Made by a program: the position numbers and the translations under genes | IMG/VR virus record: IMGVR_UViG_3300012154_000001 | Coordinates: 1 to 60,486 of that record | Strand: one strand, 5' to 3' | Origin: a virus | Length of the DNA: 60,486 nucleotides | The notes under the pieces: generated by a model | Seen by the model: the letters and a program-made list of their open reading frames with translations, nothing else | Database searches by the model: none | What the model was told of the DNA's origin: nothing | Shown: positions 4,529-30,333 of the stretch, piece by piece | How positions within the stretch are numbered: position 1 is the first letter of the stretch | Layout: each line of letters begins with the position of its first letter

Positions 4529-5917
4529 ATGTCACAGATATTTATAGGATTAATCGCCGAAGCTGCCCGAGCTGATATGAAGACATCCGGCATCCTTGCA
4601 AGCGTTACAATCGCTCAGGCCTGCTTGGAATCGGCATATGGAACCAGTGAACTGGCGGTCATGGCAAACAATCTATTCGGCATGAAAGCCGTGCTGTCCG
4701 GCAACACATGGGCATCGGAGTGGGATGGCAGAACATACGGCAAGGAAACTAAGGAGCAGGATTCCGCCGGCAATGAATACACGATCACGGCAGCCTTTCG
4801 CAAGTATCAATCGCTTGCGCAGTCCATCAAGGATCACGGTGATTACTTGTTGGGAGCCATGAACGGGAACAACTTGCGCTATGCTGGTCTTTCCGGCTGC
4901 ACGGATTACCGAACGGCAGCGCAGATCATCAAGGCGGGCGGTTATGCGACTGATACGGCCTACGTAGACAAGCTATGCTCGGTTATTGAGAGTAACAATC
5001 TAACCCAGTACGACGGAGGGAAAACGATGAAAATATGTCTTGATGCAGGGCATTATGGAAAATACAATCAGTCACCGGCAGACAGCCGGTATTATGAATC
5101 AGACATGGCGTGGAAACTGACAGAGTTACAAAAAAAGTACTTACAGCAACATGGATTTGAGGTCATTACCACGCGCCCTAATCAGGCAACTGACAGGGAT
5201 TTGTATGATCGCGGAGCAGCATCCAAAGGTTGTGATCTATTCATCTCCAATCACTCAAATGCTGTAGCAAGCACAGTCAATAATAGTGTCGACTATCCCG
5301 CTGCTTATTGCGCTATAAATCACTCTGCGGACGCTGTAGGGCTTTTGCTGGCACAAGTGGTGGAAAGTTACATCGGAACCAAACAGGTTGCCAGAATCCA
5401 AAATAGAAGCGGCAATAACGGTGATTATTATGCTGTGCTTCGAGGGGCTACGGCAGTAGGAACGCCGGGGTTAATCCTGGAGCATTCGTTTCATACCAAC
5501 GCAGCCTCCACGGCCTGGTTGCTTGATGATAATAACCTTGACCGGCTGGCACAGGCAGAAGCGTCCGCGATAGCAATGCATTACGGCGTTACCGTAACAG
5601 TGAAATCCGGATGGATCGAGGAGAATGGTGGCTGGCGCTATTACAATGGCGACACGGGCAGTTATGTAGCTAACGATTGGGTGCTTGATGGCGGCAAATG
5701 GTATTGGTTCGACGCTGCCGGGATGATGGTGGCAAACGTCTGGTACATGCATAACGGCCATTGGTATTATCTTGGTGCAGACGGGGTTATGCTGAAAGGC
5801 TTGCAGGATATTGGCGGGAAGTGGTACTATTTGAATGGAAATGGCGAAATGGCAACGGAGCCGGTCACGCTAACACCTGACAGAGATGGCGCATTGCAAT
5901 ACCCGGGCATTGGATAA
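4529..5917 (+). CDS. Modular endolysin: glucosaminidase + Amidase_3 + cell-wall-binding repeats
   Basis: GGAGG precedes ATG 4529. Glucosaminidase-type N-terminus (AQACLESAYGTS...NNLFGMKA). Amidase_3 core (MKICLDAGHYG...SNHSNA). C-terminal GW/YY repeats of CW_binding_1 type. Confidence 0.9.
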   Translation: MSQIFIGLIAEAARADMKTSGILASVTIAQACLESAYGTSELAVMANNLFGMKAVLSGNTWASEWDGRTYGKETKEQDSAGNEYTITAAFRKYQSLAQSIKDHGDYLLGAMNGNNLRYAGLSGCTDYRTAAQIIKAGGYATDTAYVDKLCSVIESNNLTQYDGGKTMKICLDAGHYGKYNQSPADSRYYESDMAWKLTELQKKYLQQHGFEVITTRPNQATDRDLYDRGAASKGCDLFISNHSNAVASTVNNSVDYPAAYCAINHSADAVGLLLAQVVESYIGTKQVARIQNRSGNNGDYYAVLRGATAVGTPGLILEHSFHTNAASTAWLLDDNNLDRLAQAEASAIAMHYGVTVTVKSGWIEENGGWRYYNGDTGSYVANDWVLDGGKWYWFDAAGMMVANVWYMHNGHWYYLGADGVMLKGLQDIGGKWYYLNGNGEMATEPVTLTPDRDGALQYPGIG

Positions 5918-16961: not shown

Positions 16962-18029
16962 TTAGCTCGTGATACTATTTTGATACGATTGTGCCAATGC
17001 ATCGGCCACGTCCTTGTGCTTGTTTGGATATAGATGCCCGTAGGTGCTGTTAACTATCTCAACAGTATCTCCAATTCTTTCGGCTATCAACAAGGGGGAA
17101 AAACCCAGCTCTATAAGAAGGGAAACATGACTATGTCTAATATCATGTACTCGAATTTGCTTGATGCCGGATTGCTGACAACCCATGTTCATTGTTCTTC
17201 TTAATTTCGAACGCGAGAACAAAAATAACCTTTCTCTGGACTGAACGTCATAAATATGGCTCATGTAATCTTCGATTAGATCGATCAAAAAAGGCGGCAA
17301 CGTAACAACACGATTGCTGTTATCTGTTTTTGGCGGCGTAATTATGTCTTTGCCATCGTCTCGATAGTGAGTCTTCGACACGGTTAAGGTTTTGTTTTTC
17401 AAATCAATATCTTTGCTTGGATTAATAGCCATCATCTCGCCAAAACGCAAACCTGTGTAAAAAAGTATCTGAAAGGCCAGCCTGGTTTCCGGCTTTTTAA
17501 TATATTCGAGAAAAGTTATAAATTCTGATTGTGTCCAAAATTCCATGCGCCCTGCCTTTGATTTGCCTATAGTTTTTACCGGCGCACATGGATCAGTGTT
17601 CATTTTATAGTACCTCTTTGCAAAATTAAAAATAGCATTAAGGTCTTTGTTTATCAGCCTCTGGTATGTTGGACTAAATTCCTTTGTCATTATAATCCCC
17701 TGCCATTTTCGGATATCAGCGGGCGTTATTTCGTTTGCACGTTTTTCCTCAAAGTAAGGCAGTATATGATTCTTGATACGGCTTTCCTTGCCCTTAACCG
17801 TAGATGCTTTGATATGTAAGGCGATATCTTCCCTGTAGAGTGCGCAGAGGGCACGAAAGGTCATATCAGGGCTTCCTTGCTGCCGTTCCAGAAAATCCCG
17901 CTCCCAAGCGGCAGCCTCTTTCTTTGTGGAAAAACCGCGCTTCATTTTCTGATCAGACTTTCCCGTCCAATCGGTGTATGAGAATTTGCAGTACCACGTT
18001 TTTCTGGCTTCATCTTTGTATGCTGGCAT
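16962..18029 (-). CDS. int: Tyrosine integrase
   Basis: 355 aa. N-terminal arm/SAM-like domain (WYCKFSYTDWTGK...). C-terminal HDIRHSHVSLLIELG and GHLY catalytic region. Confidence 0.9.
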   Translation of the reverse strand: MPAYKDEARKTWYCKFSYTDWTGKSDQKMKRGFSTKKEAAAWERDFLERQQGSPDMTFRALCALYREDIALHIKASTVKGKESRIKNHILPYFEEKRANEITPADIRKWQGIIMTKEFSPTYQRLINKDLNAIFNFAKRYYKMNTDPCAPVKTIGKSKAGRMEFWTQSEFITFLEYIKKPETRLAFQILFYTGLRFGEMMAINPSKDIDLKNKTLTVSKTHYRDDGKDIITPPKTDNSNRVVTLPPFLIDLIEDYMSHIYDVQSRERLFLFSRSKLRRTMNMGCQQSGIKQIRVHDIRHSHVSLLIELGFSPLLIAERIGDTVEIVNSTYGHLYPNKHKDVADALAQSYQNSITS

Positions 18030-18190: not shown

Positions 18191-18301
18191 GTGGAAAGTC
18201 TCAAAAATGAACTACATGGATTAATCGACAAAATACATAGCGCAAAATTCCTGAAAAGTCTCATTAGTTTAATAAGGAGTGTTTTAGAGAGCGAGGATTA
18301 G
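18191..18301 (+). CDS. Possible micro-ORF (36 aa, GTG), 3' end overlapping the repressor gene
   Basis: VESLKNELHGLIDKIHSAKFLKSLISLIRSVLESED. A competing 11-codon ORF starts at ATG 18189. Coding status uncertain. Confidence 0.25.
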   Translation: MESLKNELHGLIDKIHSAKFLKSLISLIRSVLESED

Positions 18302-18699
18302 TCTTCGCTCTCTTTTTCTACCCTTTCTACTCTGTCGATACAAGCCTTGAATTCCTCATAGATACTTTCCCATTGTTCGTCCGGAAGTGTTTCTACTATC
18401 TTTAGAAGCATTGTAGCCATATTCTTCTTAATGGGACTTCCCACTTCCATTATCTTCCCGAAGCGTCCATATGTTTCTTCTTCTATGGAAAGATCTTTTT
18501 TCATATTGCCCTTGCCGGTCCGCAACCAAACTTCGCTTATACTTAATTTTTCGCATATTTTCGAAATGTGTATGTCCTTGGGGCTCCTTGTTCCCAACTC
18601 CCACATTGCTACCGTGGACGAACCGACCAATATTTCCTTGCTAAATTCCGCCTGGCTCATATTGAGGCTTTCCCTTACTTTTTTTATACGTTCTTTCAA
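18298..18699 (-). CDS. cI-like repressor (XRE HTH, no peptidase domain), TTG start
   Basis: HTH segment is LNMSQAEFSKEILVGSSTVAMWELG. AAGGAGGTG lies 7 nt before the TTG. Divergent from the early promoter. Confidence 0.75.
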   Translation of the reverse strand: MKERIKKVRESLNMSQAEFSKEILVGSSTVAMWELGTRSPKDIHISKICEKLSISEVWLRTGKGNMKKDLSIEEETYGRFGKIMEVGSPIKKNMATMLLKIVETLPDEQWESIYEEFKACIDRVERVEKESED

Positions 18700-18799: not shown

Positions 18800-18874
18800 A
18801 TACTTACAAAGCAAGTAGAAAGTGAGGTGAGACACATAATATTGAAAATCAAAGATGTTGAGAGAAAGGAGATT

Positions 18875-19627
18875 ATGAACGAGTTAATTAGAATCAATTA
18901 TGAAACAGAACAGCCGACAGTATCGGCAAGGGATTTACACGAAGCATTAGAAATTAATACACCATACACAATGTGGTTTGAGCGAATGACAGGTTATGGT
19001 TTTGAAGAAGGAAAAGACTTTCTCACAAAAATGTTAGAAAGTACTGGCGGTCGTCCAATGACCGATAATGACATATCAGTCAATATGGCAAAAGAAATTT
19101 GCATGATTCAGCGTTCCGAAAAAGGCAAACAATACCGCCAGTATTTTCTTGACTTGGAAGATGCTTGGAATACTCCCGAGCAGGTCATGGCCAGAGCATT
19201 AAAGATGGCCGAGCAATCCATGGCTAGCCTGAAAGACCGCTGTCGGTTCTTGGGTGGGCAGGTAGTGGAGCAACAAAAAGTGATCGAGGAGTTGCAACCA
19301 AAAGCATCGTATTATGATTTGATTCTCCAGTGCAAGGATTTGATTGCGACAACGATTATCGCCAAGGATTATGGGATGTCAGCAATAGCATTCAATAAAA
19401 TGCTTCACGAAATGGGAATTCAGTATCAACAGAGCGGAACTTGGGTTCTATATGCAAAATACCAGGGACAAGGGTATTTGAAGCCAAAGACTCATAATTA
19501 CGCCGATACCGCAGGCATTCAACATTCAAGAGAGCATTCCTATTGGACGCAGAAGGGCAGATTGTTTCTTTACGATTTATTGAAACAAGAATGTATATTG
19601 CCCTTGATGGAAAGGAAGATTGCTTGA
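18875..19627 (+). CDS. Antirepressor (AntA N-terminal domain + KilAC/ANT C-terminal domain)
   Basis: Start at MNELIRINY (AAAGGAG SD). Motifs VSARDLHEALEINTPYTMWFERM and YYDLILQCKDLIATTIIAKDYGMSA. Confidence 0.8.
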   Translation: MNELIRINYETEQPTVSARDLHEALEINTPYTMWFERMTGYGFEEGKDFLTKMLESTGGRPMTDNDISVNMAKEICMIQRSEKGKQYRQYFLDLEDAWNTPEQVMARALKMAEQSMASLKDRCRFLGGQVVEQQKVIEELQPKASYYDLILQCKDLIATTIIAKDYGMSAIAFNKMLHEMGIQYQQSGTWVLYAKYQGQGYLKPKTHNYADTAGIQHSREHSYWTQKGRLFLYDLLKQECILPLMERKIA

Positions 19628-19655: not shown

Positions 19656-19814
19656 GTGAAAAAGTCCAAAAAATTGAAAGAGCGTCTTGATCAGATTGAA
19701 GAAATCTTGAACGGAACGGATGAATTGTCCCCTAAGGAGAAACAGATGTTGTTTACGACAATATCTACTATATTTAATCTGCATACCATTGCAAGTGATG
19801 AAAAAGTTGGATAA
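19656..19814 (+). CDS. Hypothetical small protein (52 aa, GTG)
   Basis: Not in the ORF track. GAGGTGAG SD. Confidence 0.35.
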   Translation: MKKSKKLKERLDQIEEILNGTDELSPKEKQMLFTTISTIFNLHTIASDEKVG

Positions 19815-19830
19815 GAAAAGGAGAAAAACT

Positions 19831-19986
19831 ATGAAAGCAACAATCAAGGCAACACCCAAAGAAATTGCCGCCCTCATAATTGAATTACAAGGGCGGCAGG
19901 CAGCCCCGGCTTATGAGACATTTGCGCCGGAGTTAAAGCTTTCGCTTAATCCGAAAGCCACTCGTGATACTGCCGAAGAATCTTAA
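19831..19986 (+). CDS. Hypothetical small protein (51 aa)
   Basis: Internal ATG with an AAAGGAGAA SD. Confidence 0.4.
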   Translation: MKATIKATPKEIAALIIELQGRQAAPAYETFAPELKLSLNPKATRDTAEES

Positions 19987-20149
19987 ACGTCATTTCAATA
20001 TTGGAATTCAATACAAATGACAAGAATTCTTCAACGGTTTCATCTGTGAGGGGTAGCCGGATTTGAAGCATCCGTGCATTTAATTCCCTCGACCATTCAT
20101 CCTGATGTTCTTGGGTGATTGACTGACAGAAATCGTCAAATGATTTCAT
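19946..20149 (-). CDS. Hypothetical protein on the opposite strand within the early region
   Basis: 67 aa with a GAAGGGA SD and its own promoter. Its 3' end overlaps 19831-19986 by 41 nt. Confidence 0.5.
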   Translation of the reverse strand: MKSFDDFCQSITQEHQDEWSRELNARMLQIRLPLTDETVEEFLSFVLNSNIEMTFKILRQYHEWLSD

Positions 20150-20199
20150 TGTGATTTTTTCCCTTCTTTTGTACTCGGCATGCCAGTGCCTGTACTTAG

Positions 20200-20228
20200 A
20201 TTATAGAAGGACTTGGAGAAAATAGCAA
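20200..20228 (-). promoter_or_regulatory. Promoter (TTGCTA, 17 nt spacer, TATAAT) for 19946-20149
   Basis: Minus-strand read of 20200-20228. Confidence 0.5.
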
Positions 20229-20253
20229 CAATTGTCAAAAAGGAGGTTACGAT

Positions 20254-20457
20254 ATGCAATCGCCAATCATGCGGGCGACAGAGGTCGCGGAACTAATGAA
20301 CGTATCACCGAATACGGCTTACAAGATTATTAAGCAGTTTAATGAAGAATTGAAGGCGAAAGGGTTTTACATTGTGGCCGGACGGATATCACGGAAGTAC
20401 TTTTATGAGCGCACCGGTTTGGAGTTGCCGGATGCCGGAGGCAAAGGCAATGATTAG
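20254..20457 (+). CDS. Excisionase-family / HTH_17-like DNA-binding protein
   Basis: ATEVAELMNVSPNTAYKIIKQFNEELKAKGFYIVAGRISRKYFYERTG is typical of Xis-like proteins from phages and conjugative transposons. Confidence 0.65.
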   Translation: MQSPIMRATEVAELMNVSPNTAYKIIKQFNEELKAKGFYIVAGRISRKYFYERTGLELPDAGGKGND

Positions 20458-20790
20458 CAATGCGCCGATTCGCGGCGCTAGGAGTGGCAAAGGAAGTGCG
20501 AGGCTCAGCATAGCATGGCAAAGGATTGGCAAGGCCAGGATGAGCGCGGCAAGGGAATTGCAGGGCATGGAGCGGCGGAGGAATGGCACTTCAATGCAAT
20601 GGAATTGAGCAGCGGAGAGTTGCAGTGATTGGCAAGGGAATGGCAACGCAATGAGATGCGATGGCAAAGCTGCGCGACACAACGCTTAGCAATGGCAGAG
20701 CAAGGCGCTACGGGGCATTGATTAGCGAAGGCAAGGCGAAGGGTGGTATTGCAAAGGAAACGCAGCGCGTTGCAAAGGCACGGCACAGGA
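20435..20790 (+). repeat. Non-coding array of same-orientation GGCAARG(G/C) motifs
   Basis: GGCAA starts at 20440, 20446, 20486, 20517, 20528, 20548, 20631, 20642, 20663 and 20730. TGCAAAGG at 20750 and 20771. No SD-led ORF; stop-poor in several frames on both strands. Confidence 0.8.
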
Positions 20791-20829
20791 TTCAAAAGCT
20801 AAAACATCAAAAAGAAGAGGAGAGCAGAA

Positions 20830-21471
20830 ATGAAGGAATTGAAAGTAAGAGTAACATTTACGGAGGAAATTTTGGGAACAGCAAGCAGTGACCCAGAGAT
20901 TCACAGCACATTCATTGCATCTAACGCACCTGACGCACCAACACGGGCCGAAGAAGTCGCGGCAATCGGAGTTGATGAAGTGATTGAAAAATCAATGACC
21001 ATCTTCCCGCGCAACAAAGAAGGGCATCCCATTATGTGGGATTATCAGGTGAAGGGATTTTTCAAGGATGCATGCGGCTGTTTGCGAAAAGTGCCAAATT
21101 CGGCATCATCAAAAATCAAGGCTTATAAAAAGGAAATTGATGGATTGATTTTCGTAAAAGAGCGGATGATACCAATCGTTTTTACCGGAGAGATCGGAAA
21201 CTGCCAGCGTCCGCTAAGAGGGCAGACAGCGCAGGGCGAACGAATTGCCCTAGCAAACAGCGAAACTATTCCGGCGGGTGCCTACATCGATTTTACGATC
21301 TCGTGCCTGTGTGATGCGCATGTTAATGCCGTGAGGGAATGGCTTGATTACGGAGAACTGAGGGGCATGGGACAGTGGCGGAACAGCGGGAAAGGCCGCT
21401 ATTTGTGGGACGAGATGGATGATTTGGGCAATGTGATTGGAGGAAACCGTGACTTTGGAGCAAGAAAATAA
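20830..21471 (+). CDS. Hypothetical early protein with C-terminal GxGxxxxxGxG loop
   Basis: 213 aa with a GAGGAG SD. GMGQWRNSGKG near the C-terminus resembles a RAMP-type glycine-rich loop. Family not established. Confidence 0.5.
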   Translation: MKELKVRVTFTEEILGTASSDPEIHSTFIASNAPDAPTRAEEVAAIGVDEVIEKSMTIFPRNKEGHPIMWDYQVKGFFKDACGCLRKVPNSASSKIKAYKKEIDGLIFVKERMIPIVFTGEIGNCQRPLRGQTAQGERIALANSETIPAGAYIDFTISCLCDAHVNAVREWLDYGELRGMGQWRNSGKGRYLWDEMDDLGNVIGGNRDFGARK

Positions 21472-21589
21472 GAAAATCGATTCGGAGTACTGTTACATCG
21501 TCAATGACGGCGCACTCAATCCCTTCGTGGTGAGGACTAATCCCGCCCGTGTGCGGCCGGAGAGGGAGCCGGAAGTAATCAGCGAATAA
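21449..21589 (+). CDS. Possible micro-ORF (46 aa, GTG)
   Basis: GGAGG lies 5 nt upstream. Overlaps the end of the previous gene. Weak support. Confidence 0.2.
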   Translation: MTLEQENKKIDSEYCYIVNDGALNPFVVRTNPARVRPEREPEVISE

Positions 21590-21607
21590 AGAATAGGAGA
21601 GAAGACA

Positions 21608-22231
21608 ATGAAGCTTAATCAGATTATCAAAACATGCAATGTCACAGTATTCGGATTTCCAGCATTCAAGGAACTCGAAAACATGGGAAACGAAATCGGA
21701 AATCAAGATGCTGTATCCACGGTTATATCCACGTTACCAGCGGCAGTCATGCTACATATCTATGATATTGGCGAATATTTTGCTCCTATCATACCGCGCG
21801 GTACAATCTTCGGGAACACAAGTGAGATTATCGAAGCTGACCTGGATGTTAATCACGTATCTGTATTTACGGCCCCCGGCCTTGACACATATGGCCCGGA
21901 CGAATTATTGATAGTAACGCAGCACAAGGCCACTATAGATATTTTGTCTGGCATGCACCCAGGAGCACCTGTTATAACGGCATCCGTATCCGCTGATGAC
22001 ATTAGGGACAAGGTGGTTATCGGAGTGTTGCCGCCGCACTTGATTCAGTTTTGCAAAGCCTTTTCAGCCGCCACAATCAAGGATTATAACGTGGCTGTGG
22101 ATGGGGATATATCTGCGGATGACTTGGGGGATAGGCTGGAGGTAATGTCGCCCATTACCGTCAAGATAAACCGAGAAGGGAGATCAATGATATGGAATGG
22201 GGAGAAGTTACAGAAAAGATTGCGCGGTTAG
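21608..22231 (+). CDS. Hypothetical early protein; C-terminal half Csx16/VVA1548-like
   Basis: LLIVTQHKATIDIL...ADDIRDKVVIGVLPPHLIQFC...GDISADDL resembles the Csx16 pattern (RHpGA..W, GDvViGtLPvhL, RG.eLs). Resemblance judged by eye only. Confidence 0.5.
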   Translation: MKLNQIIKTCNVTVFGFPAFKELENMGNEIGNQDAVSTVISTLPAAVMLHIYDIGEYFAPIIPRGTIFGNTSEIIEADLDVNHVSVFTAPGLDTYGPDELLIVTQHKATIDILSGMHPGAPVITASVSADDIRDKVVIGVLPPHLIQFCKAFSAATIKDYNVAVDGDISADDLGDRLEVMSPITVKINREGRSMIWNGEKLQKRLRG

Positions 22232-23455: not shown

Positions 23456-25378
23456 ATGAATATAAAACTGAAAGAAATACGTATTGAAAACTTCAAAGGC
23501 ATCAGGGAACTGACCGTGAATTTTCAGGACAGGACATATATTTTCGGTCAAAACGCCACGGGTAAAACGACCATCATGGACGGTTTTATGTGGCTGTTAT
23601 TCGGCAAAGACAGTCTGGGTAGGGCAGATTTTAGTATCCGGCCAAACGACACGGACGGCAAAGTCATCAATAATGTTGTTATCAAGGTTACAGCCGCCTT
23701 GGATATTGATGGATGGGAACTTATCCTAACCAAGACCCAAGAACAAAATTGGGTAAAGAAGCGCGGGAGTGATGTGACAGAGCTTCAGGGCAATATTAAC
23801 AGCTATGAAGTCAACGAAATTCCCAAATCCGAGAAGGATTACAAGGCGTACATAAGCGAGTTGATTAATGAGGAGCTTTTCAAGCTAATAACCAGTCCAC
23901 GGGCGTTCACCTCCTTGAAATGGAAAGATCAACGAGATATTCTGCTGAAACTGGTTTCGAATGTGACCGATCTGGATGTGGCTGAAACCGACGAAAAGTT
24001 TGCCGCGCTGGCGCCGATGTTAAAAGATGCGTCCGTAGATGACTTGACCGCCAAAACAAAAAAGGCGCTGAAAGAACTGAACAAGAAACAGGCAGAACTG
24101 CCGGCACGAATCGACGAAGCCAACAAGGGCCTGGTGGATGCCGACTTTGCGGCATGCGAAGCCCAAAAAACAGATTTGGAAAGCCAGATCAAGGAGTTGG
24201 AGAGTCAGGAGGCTGACGCGTCTAAGGTCGGCGAGGCCATGGAAAACCTACAGCGGGACATTGTCCGCAAGCAGTCCGAAATAGGGGAACTCCAGCGGCG
24301 GGAAAATGAAACGTTGATCAATCAGCGCCGGGAAATCCAAAAGCGGATAGACGGCGCAGAGGCGGTATTTACGCGGGCTTTTAGATTTCAAACCGAGATC
24401 GAGAACGATATACAGCACAAGAGCGAACTCATTGAGGGATACAGGACGCTTAAGGAGTCATTGCTCAAAAAGTACAAAGAAACAGCGGCTATTGACATGG
24501 ACATCAATGATTGTAACTGTCCCATGTGCGGCCAAGTCCTTCCTGCCGATCAGCAAGAAGAAAAGGTTGCGGAATTCCGCGAAAGCAAACAGAAATCTAT
24601 CGACGATACTGTGAGTACTGGCAAGAAGGTTGCTGCCGACATCCTCACACTGGAATCGGACATCAAAGAGTTACAAGGGCAGCTGGAAGAATGCAAGGCT
24701 GACAAGATCAAACAGAATGCCCTGAAAACGGCAGCCATGAAAGAGCTTGGAGCCTTGCCGCAGGAGGTGGATTTGACCACGAATGGCGAGTATCTGGTCT
24801 TGTGGGAAGAGGTTATGCAGCTACAGGCGAGAGCCAAGGACATGGAAAGCGGTTCGGGCTATCTTGATCAGATCAGACGGCAAAAAGCTGGCTTAGTGGC
24901 AGAACTGGATAGCGTCAAGACCATTCTTGCCGGAAAAGACAATAATCAGCGGGTTAAGGATCGCATTGCAGAGCTACAACAAGAACAGCGATCTGTAGCG
25001 CAGAAAATTGCCAATCAGGAAAAGGGATTGTTTCTTTTGGAGGAATTCACAAGGGCCAAAATGGATATGTTATCATCCCGGATCAATGAAAAATTCAAGC
25101 TGGTTAACTTCCGGTTGTTTGAAGATCAGCTGAATGGCGGGTGCAAGGAAACCTGTGAGTGCACGATTTACGGTGTGCCTTTTGAATCTTTGAGTTTTGC
25201 ATTTAAAACAGTCGCCGGACTGGACATTATAATCGCCTTGCAAGACATTTATGGCACGACTGCCCCGATCTTTGTTGACAACGCGGAGTCTATTAATGGC
25301 TTTAATATCCCGGATGTGGCTGGTCAGTTAATTTTATTAATAGTGTCCGAAGACGAAAAATTGAAAGTTGAGGTATAG
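23456..25378 (+). CDS. SbcC/Rad50-like AAA ATPase with zinc hook
   Basis: Walker A GQNATGKTT. Long coiled coils with a central CPMCGQ hook. C-terminal IFVDNAES (Walker B / D-loop). Confidence 0.8.
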   Translation: MNIKLKEIRIENFKGIRELTVNFQDRTYIFGQNATGKTTIMDGFMWLLFGKDSLGRADFSIRPNDTDGKVINNVVIKVTAALDIDGWELILTKTQEQNWVKKRGSDVTELQGNINSYEVNEIPKSEKDYKAYISELINEELFKLITSPRAFTSLKWKDQRDILLKLVSNVTDLDVAETDEKFAALAPMLKDASVDDLTAKTKKALKELNKKQAELPARIDEANKGLVDADFAACEAQKTDLESQIKELESQEADASKVGEAMENLQRDIVRKQSEIGELQRRENETLINQRREIQKRIDGAEAVFTRAFRFQTEIENDIQHKSELIEGYRTLKESLLKKYKETAAIDMDINDCNCPMCGQVLPADQQEEKVAEFRESKQKSIDDTVSTGKKVAADILTLESDIKELQGQLEECKADKIKQNALKTAAMKELGALPQEVDLTTNGEYLVLWEEVMQLQARAKDMESGSGYLDQIRRQKAGLVAELDSVKTILAGKDNNQRVKDRIAELQQEQRSVAQKIANQEKGLFLLEEFTRAKMDMLSSRINEKFKLVNFRLFEDQLNGGCKETCECTIYGVPFESLSFAFKTVAGLDIIIALQDIYGTTAPIFVDNAESINGFNIPDVAGQLILLIVSEDEKLKVEV

Positions 25379-25382
25379 GAAG

Positions 25383-26303
25383 ATGGCAAATGAGATACAG
25401 GAAGTCAAGATGGGAATCACCCAAGCTGGTATCGACTACGTGGTCGGGGAGCTGGACAAAAAGAAGGAAAAAGGACTTAAGTTTCCAGTCAACTACAGCA
25501 TTACAAATGCAATGCAGTCCGCATTTTTGATGTTGCGGGAAGCGGAAAACAAAGAGGGGAAGCCGTTATTGTCTGTCTGTACCCAAGATTCCGTTGTCCA
25601 ATCACTGATGCAGATGGCAACGCAAGGACTTAACCCGGTGAAAAAACAATGCTATTTCGTTGCTTACGGGAAAAAGTGTTCATTGGTTCCGTCCTATTTT
25701 GGGACGCTGGCCATCCTTAAAAGGGTTGTTAATGTAGTTGGAGAGCCAGTAGCGAACATTATCTATAAGGGTGATATTTTCGAATATTCCTTTGATCTAG
25801 ACACAGGCGAAACCGTTATTACGAAGCACGAGCAGAAGTTAGATAATATGGATAATGCCAATATTGGGGGTGCATATGCCATCGTTAGGACTGAAAATCA
25901 GAAGATTATTGAAATCATGAATATTAATCAACTGAAAAAGGCATGGGCGCAGGGAAGATCATGGCAAGCAGCAGAAAAGGGTGGCTATGACTCCAAAACA
26001 CATACTAATTTCACGGAAGAAATGGCGAAAAAAACGGTGCTGAACCGGGCCTGTAAAAAACTGATCAATTCCACTGACGACAGTTCATTGATGGGACATG
26101 AGTTCCTGGAGGCATACAACGACACAGAATCCAACGACACCTTGGATGTCGTAGCCGAACAAGTGGCGGTTACGATTGAGGAAAACGCAAACAGCGTTGA
26201 TTTTGTCGAGGACGATCAGGCACCGGCAGCGGATGCGACACCAACGACACCGGCAGCACCGGAGCCAGCCGAAGAAGTGACCGAGGAAAAAGACCCATTT
26301 TAA
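25383..26303 (+). CDS. recT: RecT-family single-strand annealing protein
   Basis: Start at MANEIQ. QCYFVAYGKKCSLVPSYFGTLAILKRV fits the RecT core. Acidic, Pro/Ala-rich tail. Confidence 0.75.
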   Translation: MANEIQEVKMGITQAGIDYVVGELDKKKEKGLKFPVNYSITNAMQSAFLMLREAENKEGKPLLSVCTQDSVVQSLMQMATQGLNPVKKQCYFVAYGKKCSLVPSYFGTLAILKRVVNVVGEPVANIIYKGDIFEYSFDLDTGETVITKHEQKLDNMDNANIGGAYAIVRTENQKIIEIMNINQLKKAWAQGRSWQAAEKGGYDSKTHTNFTEEMAKKTVLNRACKKLINSTDDSSLMGHEFLEAYNDTESNDTLDVVAEQVAVTIEENANSVDFVEDDQAPAADATPTTPAAPEPAEEVTEEKDPF

Positions 26304-26312
26304 GGAGAGCGC

Positions 26313-27008
26313 ATGAAAGTAACATGTTTAGGGAGCGGATCGGCGGGTAACTGCTATCTGCTCCACAACGAAACAGAGTGTTTGGTCATAGAGGCCGGAA
26401 TATCGTTTAAAGAAGTAAAAAAGGCGTTGAACTTTGATGTCGACAAGATTCACGGCGTGATAGTGACCCACGAACACGGAGATCATGCCGCGTATATCAA
26501 TCAATATTTGCAAGCAGGTATACCGGTTTTGAGACCGTGGCATGAGTCCGGCATAGATGCCTTGTCATATCCACTTACGGCTGGGTTCTTGCCGTTTACG
26601 GTCAAAGTTTTTGATCAAGTGCATGACGTTCCCTGTTATGGCTTTCTGATTTCCCACAGGGAAATGGGGCGGCTGCTTTTTGCAACTGATACCGAGTACG
26701 TAAAGTATCGGTTCAAAAGCTTGAACCACATCATGATTGAATGTAACTACAGCGTCCGTCTACTACGGAGTGCCTACCATGAGGGTTTGCGGGATCGTGT
26801 CCGAATGACTCACATGGAGTTAGAGACATGTAAAGACTTCATCCGAGCCAATCAGAGCAATGACTTGAAATCGGTCTGTTTGATGCACTTGTCCAACCAG
26901 ACAAGCGACGAAGAGGGATTCCGGCGAGAGATAGAGGACTTGGTGACGTGTCCGGTCTACGTGGCGGATAAGGGTTTAGAATATGAATTACAAGGAGGGA
27001 ACAAATGA
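26313..27008 (+). CDS. MBL-fold metallo-hydrolase (likely recombination exonuclease)
   Basis: Has the THEHGDH (HxHxDH) motif. Sits between the RecT and SSB genes. Confidence 0.75.
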   Translation: MKVTCLGSGSAGNCYLLHNETECLVIEAGISFKEVKKALNFDVDKIHGVIVTHEHGDHAAYINQYLQAGIPVLRPWHESGIDALSYPLTAGFLPFTVKVFDQVHDVPCYGFLISHREMGRLLFATDTEYVKYRFKSLNHIMIECNYSVRLLRSAYHEGLRDRVRMTHMELETCKDFIRANQSNDLKSVCLMHLSNQTSDEEGFRREIEDLVTCPVYVADKGLEYELQGGNK

Positions 27009-27442
27009 ATAAAGTAATTTTAATCGGGCGCTTAACCGATGACCCGGACGTGCGTTATTCAGATTCGGGTACCACGGTAGCCAAATTCAGCGTGGCAGTT
27101 GACCGTAGGTATAAAAAAGATGGGGAGCAGAGCGCAGACTTTCCCCGCATAGTAGCATTTGGAAAGACGGCTGAATTTATCGAAAAATATTTCAGAAAGG
27201 GAAACCGGATTGTGCTTGAGGGAAGATTGCAAACCAGCTCTTACACGAACAAGGATGGGCAGAAGGTCTACACCACTGATGTGATTGTTGACCAGGTGGA
27301 ATTTGGTGAAAGCAAAGCCCCTTCTGCCAATAACGGAGGCGATTATCAGCCAACCAGCCGACCGGTTCCAGCAACCGTGATCAACGACGGATTCATGAAC
27401 ATTCCGGACGGCGTAGAAGACGAAAGTTTACCATTTAATTAA
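27005..27442 (+). CDS. ssb: Single-stranded DNA-binding protein
   Basis: OB-fold N-terminus (MNKVILIGRLTDDPDVRY). Acidic C-terminal tip DESLPF. Confidence 0.9.
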   Translation: MNKVILIGRLTDDPDVRYSDSGTTVAKFSVAVDRRYKKDGEQSADFPRIVAFGKTAEFIEKYFRKGNRIVLEGRLQTSSYTNKDGQKVYTTDVIVDQVEFGESKAPSANNGGDYQPTSRPVPATVINDGFMNIPDGVEDESLPFN

Positions 27443-27457
27443 ACAGGAGGTCAGCAG

Positions 27458-27925
27458 ATGGTAATACAAATTGATTCACGCGAAAAGGCTCGTGCAATCC
27501 GCAAGATTGTGGAGACTTTTGATAAGCAGGGAGTACAGCACTTTATAAGCAAGCTTCACGTTGGTGATTACATGAATTTTGATAACCCGCGGCTGATCAT
27601 TGACCGCAAACAAAATCTGACGGAACTGACAAGCAACGTCTGCCAGGGCCACAGGCGGTTCACGGACGAACTGCGGAGGGCGCAAGAAATCGGTGTAAAG
27701 GTGATTGTTTTGGTCGAGCATAGCAATCAGATCAAGAGCATTGACGATGTGCACAAATGGACTAATCCCCGCCTAAAATCATCCCCTAAAGCCGTCACCG
27801 GCGAGAAGCTGGAAAAGATACTGAAAACCATGGAACGGAAGTATAACACGGAATTTCTGTTTTGTGACAAGCTACACACAGGAACGCGGATAATTGAACT
27901 CTTAGAAGGGCGTGAGGCAACTTGA
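27458..27925 (+). CDS. ERCC4-type nuclease (structure-specific / resolvase-like)
   Basis: IDSREK, GDY and IIDRKQNLTELTSNV fit the ERCC4 GDY...ERK..DL..S pattern. Confidence 0.6.
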   Translation: MVIQIDSREKARAIRKIVETFDKQGVQHFISKLHVGDYMNFDNPRLIIDRKQNLTELTSNVCQGHRRFTDELRRAQEIGVKVIVLVEHSNQIKSIDDVHKWTNPRLKSSPKAVTGEKLEKILKTMERKYNTEFLFCDKLHTGTRIIELLEGREAT

Positions 27926-28203
27926 CCAGCCGAAAAATGGAAGCAATCAAAAAGGCAGAGTCAAAGCAAAAGCATGCCTTAATCGAGGCAGAGAACAGGT
28001 CTTTTATGGCCTGGCGCAAAACGCGACTCTTTCAAGTGTGTAGATTGTTGCGGCTCTTGGATCAGTTGATTCCGTTGTATCCTCCTTTTTCGGACGAACA
28101 ATGTGTAGCTGTTGAAATGATGATTCAAAATGAACAAAAATACCAAGTCCTTGCAAGCGGGACAAGGGAGGAGCAGGAGGAAATGAGACGACAGGATGAA
28201 TGA
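27922..28203 (+). CDS. Hypothetical protein
   Basis: TTG 27922 or ATG 27937 as start. Overlaps both neighbours. Confidence 0.4.
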   Translation: MTSRKMEAIKKAESKQKHALIEAENRSFMAWRKTRLFQVCRLLRLLDQLIPLYPPFSDEQCVAVEMMIQNEQKYQVLASGTREEQEEMRRQDE

Positions 28204-30031
28204 GCCGTGGAAAGAATTTACAAAAGACGAATTTAATACGGAAGCGCCCTATGCCCTCTTATTCAGCCACAAGGACGATGGTTTTGCCCACATGCAGTTA
28301 TTTAATACGTTATCGGCCAATGCCGAACGGGTGGGATTTAAACGCTTTAGCATGATGGTTAAGGCTTACTTTGCCCAGCATGAGGACCGTAAAGGGGGAA
28401 TAAGTAGCGTTGTCAACAACCTGACCAACTTTCGGGATCAGTCAATTGAGCTTTTTACCGGCGATTGGATGGCCGACGATCATGGCATTGTCCGGCGAAA
28501 CGATAACCAAGGCATGGACGTGGCCTGTATCCATCCGATCCTGCCGGTGCAGCGGCTGGTCAATATCGACGATGGAACCGTGCGCTTGAAACTGATGTTT
28601 CGCCGGGATTTCAGGGATTGGAAAGAAGTAGTGGCCGACAAGAGTATGTTATTCAGTGCAAGGGAGATAAAAAAATTGGCTGACAGGGATGTGTCGGTTT
28701 CCGACAAGAACGCATCATATTTGGTGGAATACCTCCAGGATATTGACGATCTGAACCACAACACAATTCCCGAGGTGCAGTCAGTAAGTCACCTTGGGTG
28801 GACATCCAACGGGATGTTTAGCCCTTACATGAAAAACTTGGAATTTGATGGGCTGGACAATTTCCGCAGTATTTTTCAGGCCGTTCGAACGCATGGAACG
28901 TTTGAGGAATGGCTTGAGATCGCGAGAGAAGTGCGAAAGACTAACACACCGGCCCGGATTGCTCTGGCTTCGAGTTTTGCGTCGGTGATTCTTAAGACGA
29001 TTGGAAAACTGAATTTTATGGTCCATTTCTGGGGTGGATCGGGAACCGGTAAAACAGTTGCCCAGCTGCTTGCCGTATCCGTGTGGGCAGACCCCGGCGA
29101 CGGCGCGGGCTATATGCAGACGTTCAATGGGACCCTTGTGGGGCTGGAACAACAGGCGAGTTTTGTCAACAACCTACCGCTGGTCCTGGATGAATTCCAG
29201 CTGGTAAAAGACAAGAAATCTTTTGAGCAAGCCGTCTATATGCTGTGCGAGGGAGTGGGCAAGACAAGGGGAGCTAAGACCGGTGGACTGCAAAAGACAC
29301 CTGTATGGAAGAATTGTATTATCACGTCCGGAGAAAGCCCGATCACCCATGCGGCATCCGGTGCCGGAGCTATGAACCGAATTATAGAGATTGAATGCCG
29401 GGATAACCTGTTTGCGGACGCACCGACGCTATTGGATGGTATCCGGCACAATTACGGACATGCCGGAAAGCTGTTTATGGGCTTCATGACCGCAGAGGCG
29501 GCGAGAGAAAAGGCGGTAGGACTGTACAAGAGCTATTATCAGGCTCTTGGTACGGCCAGCACGGAAAAACAGACCATGGCGGCGGCTGCCATCCTTACAG
29601 CGGACGCTCTGGCCACGGAATGGCTGTTTTGCGACGGTAGAGGGCTCACAGTAGAGGATATTGAAAAATACCTGCACAGCAAGGATAACGTGGACGCTGG
29701 GCTTCGAGGGTACGAGTACATACAAGAGTACTACGTGAGCAACTCAGCCAAATTTGAGGCTGATTTTGATCCCTGTTTCGGTACTGTCATGGGTGACGAA
29801 TTGCGGTTCATCAAGCGCAATTTTGAGCAAGTATGCGAAGAGGGCGGGTATAATCCCAAAGCGCTTCTGTCATGGCTTGATCAGGCGGGCAGATTAGACA
29901 AGGGAAAAGACAGTCTGTATAAGTCGACTAAGATTAACGGGACTGCTACTCGCTGCGCTTGTATTAACATGGCGGAGTCCCTACAAATAGAGTTTGATCC
30001 GGTCGGAAACACGGATTTGCCGTTTAAATAG
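28196..30031 (+). CDS. Replicative primase/helicase-like protein (DUF927 / SF3-type NTPase)
   Basis: 611 aa. Walker A FWGGSGTGKT and Walker B LVLDEF. The iteron array lies immediately downstream. Confidence 0.65.
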   Translation: MNEPWKEFTKDEFNTEAPYALLFSHKDDGFAHMQLFNTLSANAERVGFKRFSMMVKAYFAQHEDRKGGISSVVNNLTNFRDQSIELFTGDWMADDHGIVRRNDNQGMDVACIHPILPVQRLVNIDDGTVRLKLMFRRDFRDWKEVVADKSMLFSAREIKKLADRDVSVSDKNASYLVEYLQDIDDLNHNTIPEVQSVSHLGWTSNGMFSPYMKNLEFDGLDNFRSIFQAVRTHGTFEEWLEIAREVRKTNTPARIALASSFASVILKTIGKLNFMVHFWGGSGTGKTVAQLLAVSVWADPGDGAGYMQTFNGTLVGLEQQASFVNNLPLVLDEFQLVKDKKSFEQAVYMLCEGVGKTRGAKTGGLQKTPVWKNCIITSGESPITHAASGAGAMNRIIEIECRDNLFADAPTLLDGIRHNYGHAGKLFMGFMTAEAAREKAVGLYKSYYQALGTASTEKQTMAAAAILTADALATEWLFCDGRGLTVEDIEKYLHSKDNVDAGLRGYEYIQEYYVSNSAKFEADFDPCFGTVMGDELRFIKRNFEQVCEEGGYNPKALLSWLDQAGRLDKGKDSLYKSTKINGTATRCACINMAESLQIEFDPVGNTDLPFK

Positions 30032-30333
30032 GCATCCGTTACAGGAAAAACGCAAAAAGTTACGGGATTTTTAGCAGTTCTGTAACCGAAGAATGTAGCA
30101 TTTATGCGGGTTTGAGGGGCATGGTTACAGGGTTACAGAAGTTACAGACTTTTTATAAGCTTATAGGGAGGCACACTGAGAGAGAAAAAAAACAGGTTTT
30201 ACACATACCCCGCGCACGTGAGGAAAAAACGTTGTAACCCTGTAACCCTGTAACCGCACCCTCTAAAGCCAGTAAAATCAAGGGTTTTACGGTTACAGAC
30301 AGTTGTAACCCTTTGTAACGGAAAGGAGGCAGC
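30032..30333. repeat. Iteron array, probable replication origin
   Basis: GTTACAG at 30038, 30124, 30132, 30141 and 30292. CTGTAAC at 30080, 30240 and 30248. TTGTAAC at 30232, 30303 and 30313. GTTACGG at 30059. A-rich spacer around 30150-30230. Confidence 0.7.

What the first reader, a model, noticed from the sequence alone, without database searches (positions are those of the whole stretch)
20435..20790. About 350-bp non-coding array of same-orientation GGCAARG motifs spaced at about helical-turn multiples
Seen: the array lies between the Xis-like HTH gene (stop at 20457) and the first early gene (ATG 20830).
- GGCAA(A/G/C)G starts at 20440, 20446, 20486, 20517, 20528, 20548, 20631, 20642, 20663 and 20730.
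- TGCAAAGG starts at 20750 and 20771; GAGCAAGG is near 20698.
- All copies are on the + strand.
- Successive spacings are 6, 40, 31, 11, 20, 83, 11, 21, about 35, about 32, 20 and 21 bp, mostly close to multiples of 10-11 bp.
- No ORF here has an SD. Several long ORFs overlap on both strands, which is typical of a stop-poor, GC-rich non-coding repeat.

Inference: this is a phased binding array for a DNA-binding protein. It could be a centromere-like site, a regulatory or nucleoprotein platform, or a second origin. The adjacent HTH protein (20254-20457) is the obvious candidate binder. Alternatively, as an RNA leader, the repeated CAAAGGA/CAAGGGA units loosely resemble CsrA-type GGA sites, which would suggest a protein-sponge RNA.
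Basis: partly seen in the sequence, partly recalled or inferred. Interest (0 to 1): 0.72.

Follow-up and report, generated by a model that had tools for sequence, protein, structure and literature searches.

The report
Phage VIPR guide-RNA repeat array
The "GGCAARG motif array" is part of a run of about 70 five-base repeats that sits beside a small Cas7-like (RAMP) gene in a prophage, and it is most likely the guide-RNA array of a VIPR system, an RNA-guided DNA-silencing system of phages first described in 2026 preprints.

Summary
The whole 20440-20788 gap is a one-strand lattice of about 70 units, 56 pentamers and 12 hexamers. 65 of 69 units end in G. The period is 5.16-5.2 nt, not 10-11. GGCAARG is the hexamer unit (GGCAAN) plus the next G.

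The gene just downstream (20830-21471) models as a minimal RAMP. Its PDB structural matches are all Csm3/Cas7 backbone subunits. A broad family profile aligns end to end with the tested Vipr protein of phage SUSP1, keeping the G-loop W-R that holds the repeat's G and Y.

All 98 related loci examined carry the same kind of array (30-148 units, mean unit 5.10-5.24 nt). It lies next to the RAMP gene, upstream or downstream, on the same strand. The HTH gene is present in only 3.

Between related arrays the phased G changes 6-7 times less often than positions 2-4.

This fits a VIPR locus with MNNNG-type repeats. The DNA-site, HTH-binder, origin and CsrA readings are not supported.

Not shown: transcription, processing, targets. 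Unusual features: array length, no interspersed tails, no conserved accessory gene, and regularly spaced hexamers.

The parts
20175..20194 (+). Conserved 20-nt element TCGGCATGCCAGTGCCTGTA, containing the inverted repeat GGCA..TGCC. It is the likely core of the early promoter/operator that drives the array-RAMP transcription unit.
   Evidence: The same element (up to 3 mismatches) lies upstream of the array on the same strand in 28 loci. It is 34 nt before the array start in 22 of them. Its promoter role is inferred. In L051 it is followed by TATAAA. The simple sigma-70 scan did not call a + strand promoter here.
20254..20457 (+). Xis-like HTH gene (67 aa), inserted between the promoter element and the array in this clade. 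It is not part of the conserved module.
   Evidence: It matches NCBIfam ICEBs1 excisionase at E 1.6e-11, below that family's cut-off (43.7 against 100 bits), and phrog_989. A homologue is present in only 3 of 98 related loci.
20440..20788 (+). vrRNA-like array of about 70 tandem units. Pentamers are M-N-N-N-G. They are punctuated every 4-8 units by hexamers C-A-A-N-G-G, which read GGCAAN in the G-first frame. The dynamic-programming call extends to 20407, inside the 3' end of the HTH ORF.
   Evidence: The local dynamic-programming score is 49.8 against a maximum of 10.6 over 170 control chunks taken from both strands of the rest of the window. G is conserved 6-7 times better than positions 2-4.
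20789..20829 (+). A-rich spacer with the ribosome-binding site GAGGAG (20817-20822) for the RAMP gene. Window 20772-20832 is conserved among close relatives. There is no terminator between the array and the gene.
   Evidence: The sequence is. The 61-62-nt 3' block is 87-97% identical in L001-L005 and L008. No + strand terminator was called in 19800-21700.
20830..21471 (+). vipr-like gene: a 213-aa minimal RAMP (single RRM, thumb hairpin, C-terminal G-loop G179-M-G-Q-W183-R184...G187-K-G189).
   Evidence: The AF2 model has pLDDT 78 and pTM 0.74. The top 50 Foldseek PDB matches are all Csm3/Cas7 subunits of type III, type VII and Cas7-11 complexes (best E 1.6e-6). The best BFVD match is a 'Cas system-associated RAMP superfamily protein' at 61% identity. 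hhalign against the SUSP1 Vipr family gives E 6.3e-5 over residues 1-198 against 1-192. There are about 2000 clusters at 50% identity.
21608..22231 (+). Csx16-family gene (207 aa), in the position where a VIPR accessory gene (vap) would sit. It is not conserved beside vipr in relatives. It is probably variable cargo, possibly a cA4 ring nuclease.
   Evidence: Its homologues carry Pfam PF09652, and one is named Csx16 (39% identity, E 4e-25). PADLOC Csx16 matches at E 2.8e-4. It is present in only L001 and L002. Csx16 was shown to be a cA4 ring nuclease in PMC12409355.

Best explanation
The region is the guide-RNA (vrRNA) array of a VIPR (Viral Interference Programmable Repeat) system carried by a temperate phage of gut or rumen Clostridia.

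Proposed mechanism, marked as shown here, taken from the literature, or inferred:
1. The array is transcribed on the + strand from the early promoter upstream of the Xis-like gene, together with the RAMP gene (inferred).
2. The 213-aa RAMP protein (Vipr) polymerises along the RNA, one protomer per 5-nt unit. It grips the conserved G, and the following A/C, with its G-loop Trp-Arg and thumb. It presents the variable bases in between (inferred from homology; shown for phage SUSP1 in bioRxiv 10.64898/2026.04.26.720927).
3. The presented bases pair discontinuously with double-stranded DNA of a competing mobile element and silence its transcription (shown only for the tested type II systems; the targets here are unknown).
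4. The regularly spaced GGCAAN hexamers carry the full canonical GGY motif. They may mark guide boundaries, assembly registers, or one extra nucleotide per roughly 6-subunit turn of the filament (speculative).
For: Array and period:
- The lattice has a 5.16-5.2-nt period and 65 of 69 units end in G.
- It is unique in the window.

The adjacent gene is a RAMP:
- Structural matches to Csm3/Cas7.
- An end-to-end profile alignment to the tested SUSP1 Vipr family: E 6.3e-5, HHalign probability 64%.
- The G-loop Trp and Arg are conserved. In SUSP1 these stack on G2 and hold Y3.
- The two SUSP1 residues that read G1 (H17, D177) are replaced by T17 and Q182. This matches the fact that only one G per unit is conserved here.

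Linkage:
- All 98 related loci examined have such an array on the same strand beside the RAMP gene. It is upstream in most (ending 21-52 nt before the ATG) and immediately downstream in L057 and L083-L097.
- Arrays have 30-148 units, with a mean unit length of 5.10-5.24 nt.

Selection pattern:
- Between homologous array blocks the mismatch rate is 1.25% at the G and 7.5-8.9% at positions 2-4.
- Phages with 97-99% identical RAMP proteins have arrays that differ by block insertions and deletions.

Fit to the published description:
- VIPR is described as a phage or prophage minimal RAMP plus tandem YNNGG repeats in flanking intergenic DNA.
- Described variants include YNNNG and NNNNG repeats and tail-less 'staggered' arrays.

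No rival signals:
- No Rfam family matches.
- The RNA fold is no more stable than shuffles, z = -1.28.
- The window has no CRISPR-like array.
Against: - Transcription, processing and RNP formation are not shown.
- Sequence homology to a tested Vipr is weak: HHalign probability 64%, and the narrow profiles matched only the G-loop.
- The array departs from the characterised vrRNAs. It has about 70 contiguous units (up to 148 in relatives) against 9-16, or at most 30, reported. It has no interspersed 3' tails. It has one conserved G rather than GG, and A/C rather than Y after it.
- No conserved accessory gene was found.
- No target was found with any tested reading rule, either in 667 kb of related phage DNA or in two IMG/VR scans. 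Those searches had low power.
Confidence: 0.85

Rival explanations
1. It is a phased duplex-DNA binding array (centromere-like site, nucleoprotein platform or operator bank) for the adjacent Xis-like HTH protein or another phage DNA binder.
For: The repeats are same-orientation and lie next to an HTH gene. Twice the period is 10.3 nt, close to the DNA helical repeat.
Against: - The HTH gene is absent from 95 of the 98 loci that carry the array. The array follows the RAMP gene both upstream and downstream.
- The 10.5-nt component is weak and the 5.2-nt component dominates.
- Only one base per 5 nt is conserved, and only on one strand. That is too little for a sequence-specific duplex binder.
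Confidence: 0.03
2. It is a 5' leader that only regulates the downstream operon. For example, the RAMP protein or a single-strand-binding or annealing protein (RecT binds 5 nt per monomer) coats the unstructured purine-rich RNA to autoregulate translation, with no guide function.
For: - In this clade the array lies in the 5' UTR of the RAMP gene with no terminator in between.
- The RNA has no fold more stable than its shuffles.
- RecT and SSB are encoded downstream.
- LiRecT binds 5 bp per monomer (PMC9772228).
Against: - In L057 and L083-L097 the array lies downstream of the RAMP gene, so it cannot be that gene's leader.
- The variable positions turn over fast and whole blocks are gained or lost between near-identical phages. 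This is expected of a guide library, not of a fixed regulatory leader.
- RecT has no known sequence preference.
- Autoregulation could still coexist with guide function.
Confidence: 0.07
3. It is a replication origin, or an R-loop-forming primer zone, built of G-rich iterons.
For: There is strong G over C skew and 68% purine on the transcribed strand. The region lies upstream of the replication and recombination module.
Against: - A classical iteron cluster (GTTACAG in both orientations) lies at 30035-30312, directly after the DUF927 primase-helicase gene.
- The array's position tracks the RAMP gene, not the replication genes.
- There is no AT-rich unwinding element inside it.
Confidence: 0.02
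4. It is a CsrA-type protein-sponge RNA with multiple GGA sites.
For: CAAAGGA and CAAGGGA units occur several times.
Against: - GGA count is 13 against 14.4 expected from composition, and ANGGA is 7 against 4.3 (P = 0.13).
- Many related arrays are dominated by GAAAAG, GAAATG or GAATAG rather than GGA-containing words.
- No hairpin-presented GGA sites are predicted.
Confidence: 0.01
5. It is protein-coding: a small basic protein or proteins, such as ATG 20450-20608 with an SD, or ATG 20661-20891.
For: There is an SD-like GGAGG 8 nt before ATG 20450. Open frames exist on both strands.
Against: - The period is 5.2 nt with a 2.6-nt harmonic and no 3-nt signal.
- Stops occur in all three + frames.
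- T is scarce at 13%, which explains the long spurious ORFs.
- Related arrays differ by block insertions and deletions of about 47 and about 290 nt.
Confidence: 0.02

Closest known systems
VIPR type II systems (Escherichia phage SUSP1, Pseudomonas fulva prophage): Vipr + vap1 + YNNGG vrRNAs (bioRxiv 10.64898/2026.04.26.720920 and 10.64898/2026.04.26.720927)
   Same: - Carried by a phage or prophage.
- A roughly 200-aa single-RRM RAMP with a thumb and a G-loop ending G-x-G-(D/Q)-W-R.
- Tandem 5-nt repeats with a conserved G-containing motif and variable bases in between.
- The repeats lie in intergenic DNA flanking the RAMP gene, on the same strand.
- No cas genes or CRISPR array nearby.
   Different: - Here one G per unit is conserved, followed by A/C (M-N-N-N-G), rather than GG + Y.
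- The G1-reading residues H17 and D177 are replaced by T and Q.
- There are about 70 (30-148 in relatives) contiguous units, not 9-16 plus a roughly 40-nt structured tail per vrRNA.
- A hexamer carrying GGC occurs about every 6 units.
- No vap1 homologue was found, and the downstream gene varies.
- I re-read the SUSP1 locus directly (L100).
Other VIPR types with YNNNG/NNNNG repeats and 'staggered' tail-less arrays (the same preprint's methods and the legends of figs S17-S18)
   Same: The degenerate pentamer consensus, and arrays in which one vrRNA abuts the next without a tail, are mentioned there. This is probably the closest described architecture.
   Different: I could read only the text and legends, not the figures or data tables. 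I therefore could not verify whether this clade, its regular hexamer spacing or its array lengths are among the 667 typed systems.
Class 1 CRISPR crRNA bound by a Cas7/Csm3 backbone
   Same: The protein fold is homologous. One protomer binds per short RNA segment, with a thumb that flips bases at a fixed period.
   Different: - The period is 5 nt and is written into the RNA sequence itself. It is not a 6-nt period imposed on an arbitrary spacer.
- There is no repeat-spacer array, no Cas6-type handle, no Cas10 or Cas8, and no adaptation genes.
TRAP-trp leader (11 G/UAG triplets spaced by 2-3 nt) and other RNA-binding proteins that read short periodic repeats
   Same: One conserved short element about every 5 nt on single-stranded RNA, read by a homo-oligomer.
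   Different: The protein fold is unrelated. TRAP reads 11 repeats on a closed ring. Here there are tens to more than a hundred units and a RAMP protein.
CsrB/RsmZ-type sponge RNAs; plasmid or phage iteron and centromere arrays
   Same: Many same-orientation short repeats in a non-coding stretch.
   Different: GGA is not enriched. The partner gene, the period and the strand asymmetry do not fit.

Membership tests
VIPR system | Vipr protein: a small single-RRM RAMP with a thumb and a glycine-rich loop | tested here: met
   - AF2 model with pLDDT 78.
- The top 50 PDB matches are all Csm3/Cas7 (E down to 1.6e-6).
- A BFVD match is named a RAMP superfamily protein.
- Invariant G179, G181, W183, N185, S186, G187 and G189.
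VIPR system | Sequence homology to an experimentally characterised Vipr (SUSP1) | tested here: inconclusive
   The broad profile (87 sequences) against the SUSP1-family profile gives E 6.3e-5 and probability 64.5%, collinear over 1-198 against 1-192. The narrow profiles matched only the G-loop (E 0.008).
VIPR system | G-loop residues that hold the repeat motif (SUSP1 W178 stacks on G2; R179 holds Y3; D177 and H17 read G1) | tested here: met
   W183 is invariant and R184 is conserved in at least 90% of sequences. Both align to W178 and R179. D177 aligns to Q182 and H17 to T17, consistent with the loss of the first G in the repeat. This rests on alignment only, not on a structure with RNA.
VIPR system | Tandem pentanucleotide repeats with a conserved G-motif and hypervariable bases, in intergenic DNA flanking vipr | tested here: met
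   - 69 units, of which 65 end in G.
- Profile M-N-N-N-G, with G at 0.96.
- Mismatch rate of 1.25% at G against 7.5-8.9% at positions 2-4.
- Present next to the gene in 98 of 98 loci examined.
- The consensus is the YNNNG/NNNNG variant, not YNNGG.
VIPR system | Individual vrRNAs of 9-16 (up to 30) repeats, each capped by a conserved structured 3' tail | tested here: not met
   The array is uninterrupted for about 70 units (up to 148 in L057) with no interspersed tails. The fold is no more stable than shuffles. The preprint does describe tail-less 'staggered' arrays for other types, so this excludes type II architecture, not VIPR as a whole.
VIPR system | A conserved accessory gene (vap) next to vipr | tested here: not met
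   The downstream gene differs between relatives: a 93-aa wHTH-like protein in 19 loci, a 203-aa protein in 14 loci, the Csx16-like protein in only 2 loci, and others. No similarity to SUSP1 vap1 was found. The preprint says 'typically', not always.
VIPR system | vrRNA is expressed, processed and co-purifies with Vipr | not testable with these tools
   This needs sRNA-seq and pull-down.
VIPR system | The variable bases match natural DNA targets through a gapped (1-nt skip) code | tested here: inconclusive
   - 24 NN rules (6 reading positions x skip 0-3) and 15 NNN/NNNN rules showed no excess over unit-shuffled controls in 667 kb of related phage DNA.
- Two IMG/VR scans gave 0 hits and 12 chance-level hits.
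- The database was small and the handling of hexamers is unknown.
CRISPR-Cas (class 1) | A repeat-spacer array plus a multi-subunit effector (Cas5, Cas7, large subunit) and usually Cas6 and Cas1-Cas2 | tested here: not met
   There are no interspaced direct repeats in the 60 kb. No cas families were found among the neighbouring ORFs, apart from the Csx16-like gene.
CsrA/RsmA sponge RNA | GGA (A(N)GGA) motifs enriched and presented in hairpin loops | tested here: not met
   GGA count is 13 against 14.4 expected. The fold z-score is -1.28. No Rfam family matched.
Iteron origin or partition centromere | Duplex repeats of at least 7-20 bp bound by a linked initiator or centromere-binding protein, phased by helical turns | tested here: not met
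   The period is 5.16 nt, with one conserved base per unit on one strand. The array is linked to a RAMP gene, not to a Rep or ParB/ParR gene.

The most novel reading that the evidence does not exclude
This very large gut- and rumen-phage clade may use a VIPR architecture that has not been characterised.

Features that point to this:
- Uninterrupted arrays of 30-148 units with a single conserved G per unit.
- The lattice is phase-locked at 5.155 nt over more than 100 nt.
- The phase is kept by a canonical GGC-containing hexamer about once every 6 units. That spacing matches the six-subunit helical turn reported for the Vipr-vrRNA filament.

Two readings remain open:
1. The whole transcript is coated as one multi-turn filament that needs one extra nucleotide per turn. 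Such a filament could read or cover hundreds of base pairs.
2. The hexamers are processing or registration marks that cut the array into a dense library of 5-7-unit mini-guides.

Either would extend the published rules (9-16 repeats, at most 30, plus a tail).
Probability: 0.35. Interest if true: 0.8.

Novelty: new member of a known kind. Interest (0 to 1): 0.62.

Why it matters
VIPR was reported only in April-June 2026 preprints. It is described there as a non-CRISPR, RNA-guided DNA-recognition system of phages and a proposed ancestor of CRISPR RAMP effectors.

What this window adds:
- A clade with about 2000 protein clusters at 50% identity, mostly in gut and rumen Clostridia phages.
- Arrays in that clade are several times longer than the vrRNAs described so far.
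- The repeat motif has relaxed to a single G, together with matching substitutions in the G1-reading residues.
- The array can sit on either side of the gene.

The regular hexamer spacing gives a concrete, testable link between RNA sequence and filament geometry or guide processing.

For annotation, it shows that G+A-rich 'non-coding gaps with long spurious ORFs' next to a small unannotated gene in prophage early regions can be guide arrays.

Tried and rejected
1. Helical-turn (10-11 bp) phasing was not significant; the real period is 5.2 nt.
2. Rfam at gathering thresholds found nothing in the window.
3. Tandem Repeats Finder saw only a 2.2-copy 11-mer, because the units are too degenerate.
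4. Near and distant DNA similarity to GenBank phages gave one unannotated record, matching inside the RAMP gene only.
5. Pfam, PHROGs, NCBIfam and PADLOC on the 213-aa protein gave no significant family match, and phmmer against PDB sequences found nothing. Only structure comparison identified it (then 37).
6. Ideas considered before the fold result, and why they were dropped:
   - TRAP-like ring binder: unrelated protein.
   - RecT 5-nt footprint: the array tracks the RAMP gene, not RecT.
   - Sigma-54-like GG-N10-GC at 20548: a by-product of the 5/6-nt lattice.
   - Two-tetrad G-quadruplexes: relatives use single Gs.
   - Chi-like decoys and curved DNA: neither explains the lattice.
7. The 207-aa gene as the accessory 'vap': it is not conserved beside the RAMP gene.
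8. Target prediction:
   - NN at any of six positions with skip 0-3, and NNN/NNNN readings, showed no excess over shuffled-unit controls.
   - An earlier run was invalid because of a boolean-addition bug and a time-out.
   - IMG/VR pattern scans gave 0 hits and 12 chance-level hits.
9. No supplementary tables of the VIPR preprint are held, so I could not check whether this clade is already typed.
Full report
**1. Observation**

- GGCAA[ACG]G occurs nine times on the + strand and never on the - strand.
- Against 5000 dinucleotide-preserving shuffles of the region itself, 8 GGCAARG compare with 0.76 expected, and no shuffle reached 8. A test that does not pre-select the motif (count of the commonest k-mer) gives P of about 0.005-0.03.
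- The claimed 10-11-bp phasing does not hold. The dominant period is 5.2 nt: for GCA the power is 15.2, reached by 0 of 1000 random placements. The 9.5-11.5 band is not significant.
- Over the whole 60-kb window, the seven strongest 300-nt windows for a roughly 5-nt period in G or A all start between 20301 and 20601.
- A dynamic-programming parse of 20440-20800 gives 69 units, of which 65 end in G: 56 pentamers, 12 hexamers and 1 heptamer.
- The local score of the array is 49.8. The maximum over 170 control chunks from the rest of the window, both strands, is 10.6.

**2. Context**

The window holds a prophage lysogeny and early region:

- integrase (16962-18029, - strand)
- CI-like repressor (18298-18699, - strand)
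- Ant (18827-19627)
- the Xis-like HTH gene
- the array
- a 213-aa ORF with no Pfam or PHROG match
- a 207-aa ORF
- an SbcC/LmuB-like ATPase
- RecT
- an MBL-fold hydrolase
- SSB
- an ERCC4 nuclease
- a DUF927 primase-helicase

**3. Relatives**

The 213-aa protein has more than 8000 homologous clusters at 90% identity and about 2000 at 50% identity. I fetched 80 IMG/VR loci and 19 genome loci, from Lachnospiraceae, Oscillospiraceae and other Clostridia MAGs.

- In about 80 loci, the 150-690 nt immediately upstream of the homologue (ending 21-52 nt before its ATG) is the same kind of lattice. It is G+A-rich, and the commonest hexamers all have the form G-N4-G.
- Every locus that lacked an upstream array (L057, L083-L097) has one immediately downstream of the gene, on the same strand, with 43-148 units.
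- Linkage to this gene is therefore 98 of 98 examined (L094 is cut too short upstream to parse). The mean unit length is 5.10-5.24 nt in the arrays beside the gene.
- The HTH gene is present in only 3 loci.
- The primary sequence of the array is not conserved. Phages with 97-99% identical protein share some blocks at 95-97% identity and differ by block insertions and deletions of about 47 and about 290 nt.

**4. Anatomy of the lattice**

These figures pool 62 non-redundant arrays: 3678 pentamers and 880 hexamers.

| Unit | Profile |
|---|---|
| Pentamer | position 1 A/C (0.47/0.42); position 2 A-rich; positions 3-4 free; position 5 G (0.96) |
| Hexamer | C-N-A(0.81)-N-G(0.81)-G(1.0) |

- Between homologous blocks the mismatch rate is 1.25% at the G, 5.0% at position 1 and 7.5-8.9% at positions 2-4.
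- Hexamers are regularly spaced. The interval is peaked at 6 units, with sd 2.2 against 4.9 for random placement. For the window alone the permutation P is 0.00125.
- As a result the pooled autocorrelation keeps sharp peaks out to more than 100 nt, at 5, 26, 31, 36, 62, 67, 98, 103 and 108. That is a phase-locked period of about 5.155 nt.
- There is no 3-nt signal.
- The RNA fold is no more stable than shuffles, z = -1.28.
- No Rfam family matches.
- GGA is not enriched, with 13 observed against 14.4 expected.

**5. The partner protein**

- AF2 on a 27-sequence alignment gave pLDDT 78 and pTM 0.74.
- All 50 listed Foldseek matches in the PDB are Csm3/Cas7 RAMP backbone subunits of type III-A/B/D, type VII and Cas7-11 complexes. 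The best has E 1.6e-6, probability 1.0 and TM about 0.5.
- In BFVD the best match is annotated 'Cas system-associated RAMP superfamily protein' at 61% identity. Two archaeal-virus proteins follow.
- The C-terminal glycine-rich loop is invariant.

**6. Literature**

A full-text search for RAMP, prophage and non-CRISPR terms found bioRxiv 10.64898/2026.04.26.720920. A second search found its structural companion, 10.64898/2026.04.26.720927. I read both. They describe VIPR systems as follows:

- a phage or prophage minimal RAMP (Vipr), usually with an accessory gene (vap);
- vrRNAs made of tandem YNNGG pentamers plus a 3' tail, encoded in the intergenic DNA flanking vipr;
- Vipr polymerises one protomer per repeat, with six subunits per turn in the binary complex and five in the DNA-bound complex;
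- it sequesters GGY and presents NN, which pairs with dsDNA while skipping every third target base;
- the outcome is transcriptional silencing of competing phages, satellites and prophages;
- seven types are defined, with variant repeats (NNNGG, YNNNG, NNNNG), 'staggered' tail-less arrays and ribozyme-interspersed arrays;
- the longest natural vrRNAs are said to reach about 30 repeats.

**7. Direct comparison with a tested system**

I located the SUSP1 locus in KT454805.2: Vipr at 28474-29061 (- strand), vap1 at 28031-28471 (- strand), and YNNGG runs on both sides.

- A broad profile of the window family (87 representatives, Neff 3.7) aligns to the SUSP1-family profile end to end, 1-198 against 1-192, with E 6.3e-5 and probability 64.5%.
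- Narrower profiles found only the G-loop.
- SUSP1 W178 stacks on G2 and R179 holds Y3. These align to the conserved W183 and R184.
- The two residues that read G1, H17 and D177, align to T17 and Q182. This agrees with the repeat here keeping one G, not two.
- The 207-aa downstream gene has no similarity to vap1 and is not conserved in relatives.

**8. Interpretation**

The best explanation is a VIPR locus whose guide array is the finding. I put confidence at about 0.85.

- Shown here: the lattice, its selection pattern, its strict linkage to a RAMP gene, and the fold and G-loop match.
- Inferred: transcription from the early promoter, RNP assembly and DNA targeting. A conserved 20-nt element at 20175-20194 lies 34 nt before the array in 22 loci, and no terminator was called between the array and the gene.
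- Not met for the type II template: repeat number, tails and vap. The locus therefore belongs to VIPR in the broad sense, with the type undetermined.
- Target prediction failed. The database was small and the reading rule for MNNNG units and hexamers is unknown.

**9. Rivals**

- Duplex-DNA site for the HTH protein: rejected on linkage, period and strand asymmetry.
- Leader-only regulation: cannot explain arrays that lie downstream of the gene. Autoregulation may coexist with guide function.
- Origin: a classical iteron cluster lies at 30035-30312, after the primase-helicase gene.
- CsrA sponge: GGA is not enriched.
- Coding: the period is 5 nt, not 3.

**10. What remains unexplained**

- Why the hexamers are so regularly spaced.
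- Whether the roughly 6-unit interval reflects the six-subunit filament turn, guide boundaries or nucleation sites.
- How arrays of up to 148 units are processed.
- What they target.

Noticed in passing
window 21608-22231 (+): The 207-aa gene right after the RAMP gene belongs to the Csx16 (Pfam PF09652) family. Csx16 is a type III CRISPR-associated protein shown to be a cA4-specific ring nuclease (PMC12409355). On a phage it could act as an anti-type-III-CRISPR enzyme. It is present beside the RAMP gene only in L001 and L002, so it looks like variable cargo.
   Followed up: partly
window 30035-30312: There is a dense cluster of GTTACAG/CTGTAACC repeats in both orientations, for example GGTTACAGGGTTACAG at 30122-30137 and its complement at 30233-30250. 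It lies immediately after the DUF927 primase-helicase gene (28196-30031). This is a likely replication origin with iterons.
   Followed up: partly
window 20175-20194; also 27 related loci (e.g. L051 2523-2542): The 20-nt element TCGGCATG(C/G)CAGTGCCTGTA is conserved across phages whose RAMP proteins are only about 67% identical. It contains the inverted repeat GGCA..TGCC. In the window it sits in the divergent intergenic region between the ORF at 19946-20149 (- strand) and the + strand early genes. It is probably an early promoter with a repressor operator.
   Followed up: partly
window 49395-49423 and 49462-49490: A perfect 29-nt direct repeat, TAGCGTGGAACCGCTATAAAAGCCAGGAG, occurs twice 67 nt apart. 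Each copy has a small hairpin (TAGCG..CGCTA) followed by an SD-like AGGAG. The second copy lies just upstream of an ATG at 49502. Its function is unknown.
   Followed up: no
L057 3586-4351; L083-L097; L087 (arrays at 2218-2434, 3589-3771, 5520-5827); L098 (2807-2958 and 3556-3982): In the more divergent homologues (about 58-71% identity) the pentamer array lies downstream of the RAMP gene instead of upstream. Some loci carry two or three arrays. The 'ORFs' there are low-complexity R/G/K/E translations of the arrays, which is an annotation trap.
   Followed up: partly
window 20437-20608 (+): An SD-like GGAGG lies 8 nt before ATG 20450. This opens a 52-codon ORF that overlaps the stop of the Xis-like gene and runs through the first third of the array. 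It is probably spurious, given the 5-nt period and the T-poor sequence, but translation was not excluded.
   Followed up: no
window 23456-27925 (+): The early operon carries an SbcC/LmuB-like ABC ATPase (640 aa) directly upstream of RecT, an MBL-fold hydrolase, SSB and an ERCC4-type nuclease. This recombination module is not linked to the RAMP gene in most relatives.
   Followed up: no
L012-L017, L038-L050 etc., about 5 nt after the RAMP gene stop (e.g. L012 1276-1557): In 19 related loci the gene immediately after the RAMP gene is a 93-aa protein that looks like a winged-helix DNA binder. In 14 others it is a 203-aa protein with a Cys-rich N-terminus that may be an HNH or NUMOD-type endonuclease. 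Both readings are from inspecting the sequences only; no family search was run on them. They may be clade-specific VIPR accessory (vap-like) genes.
   Followed up: no
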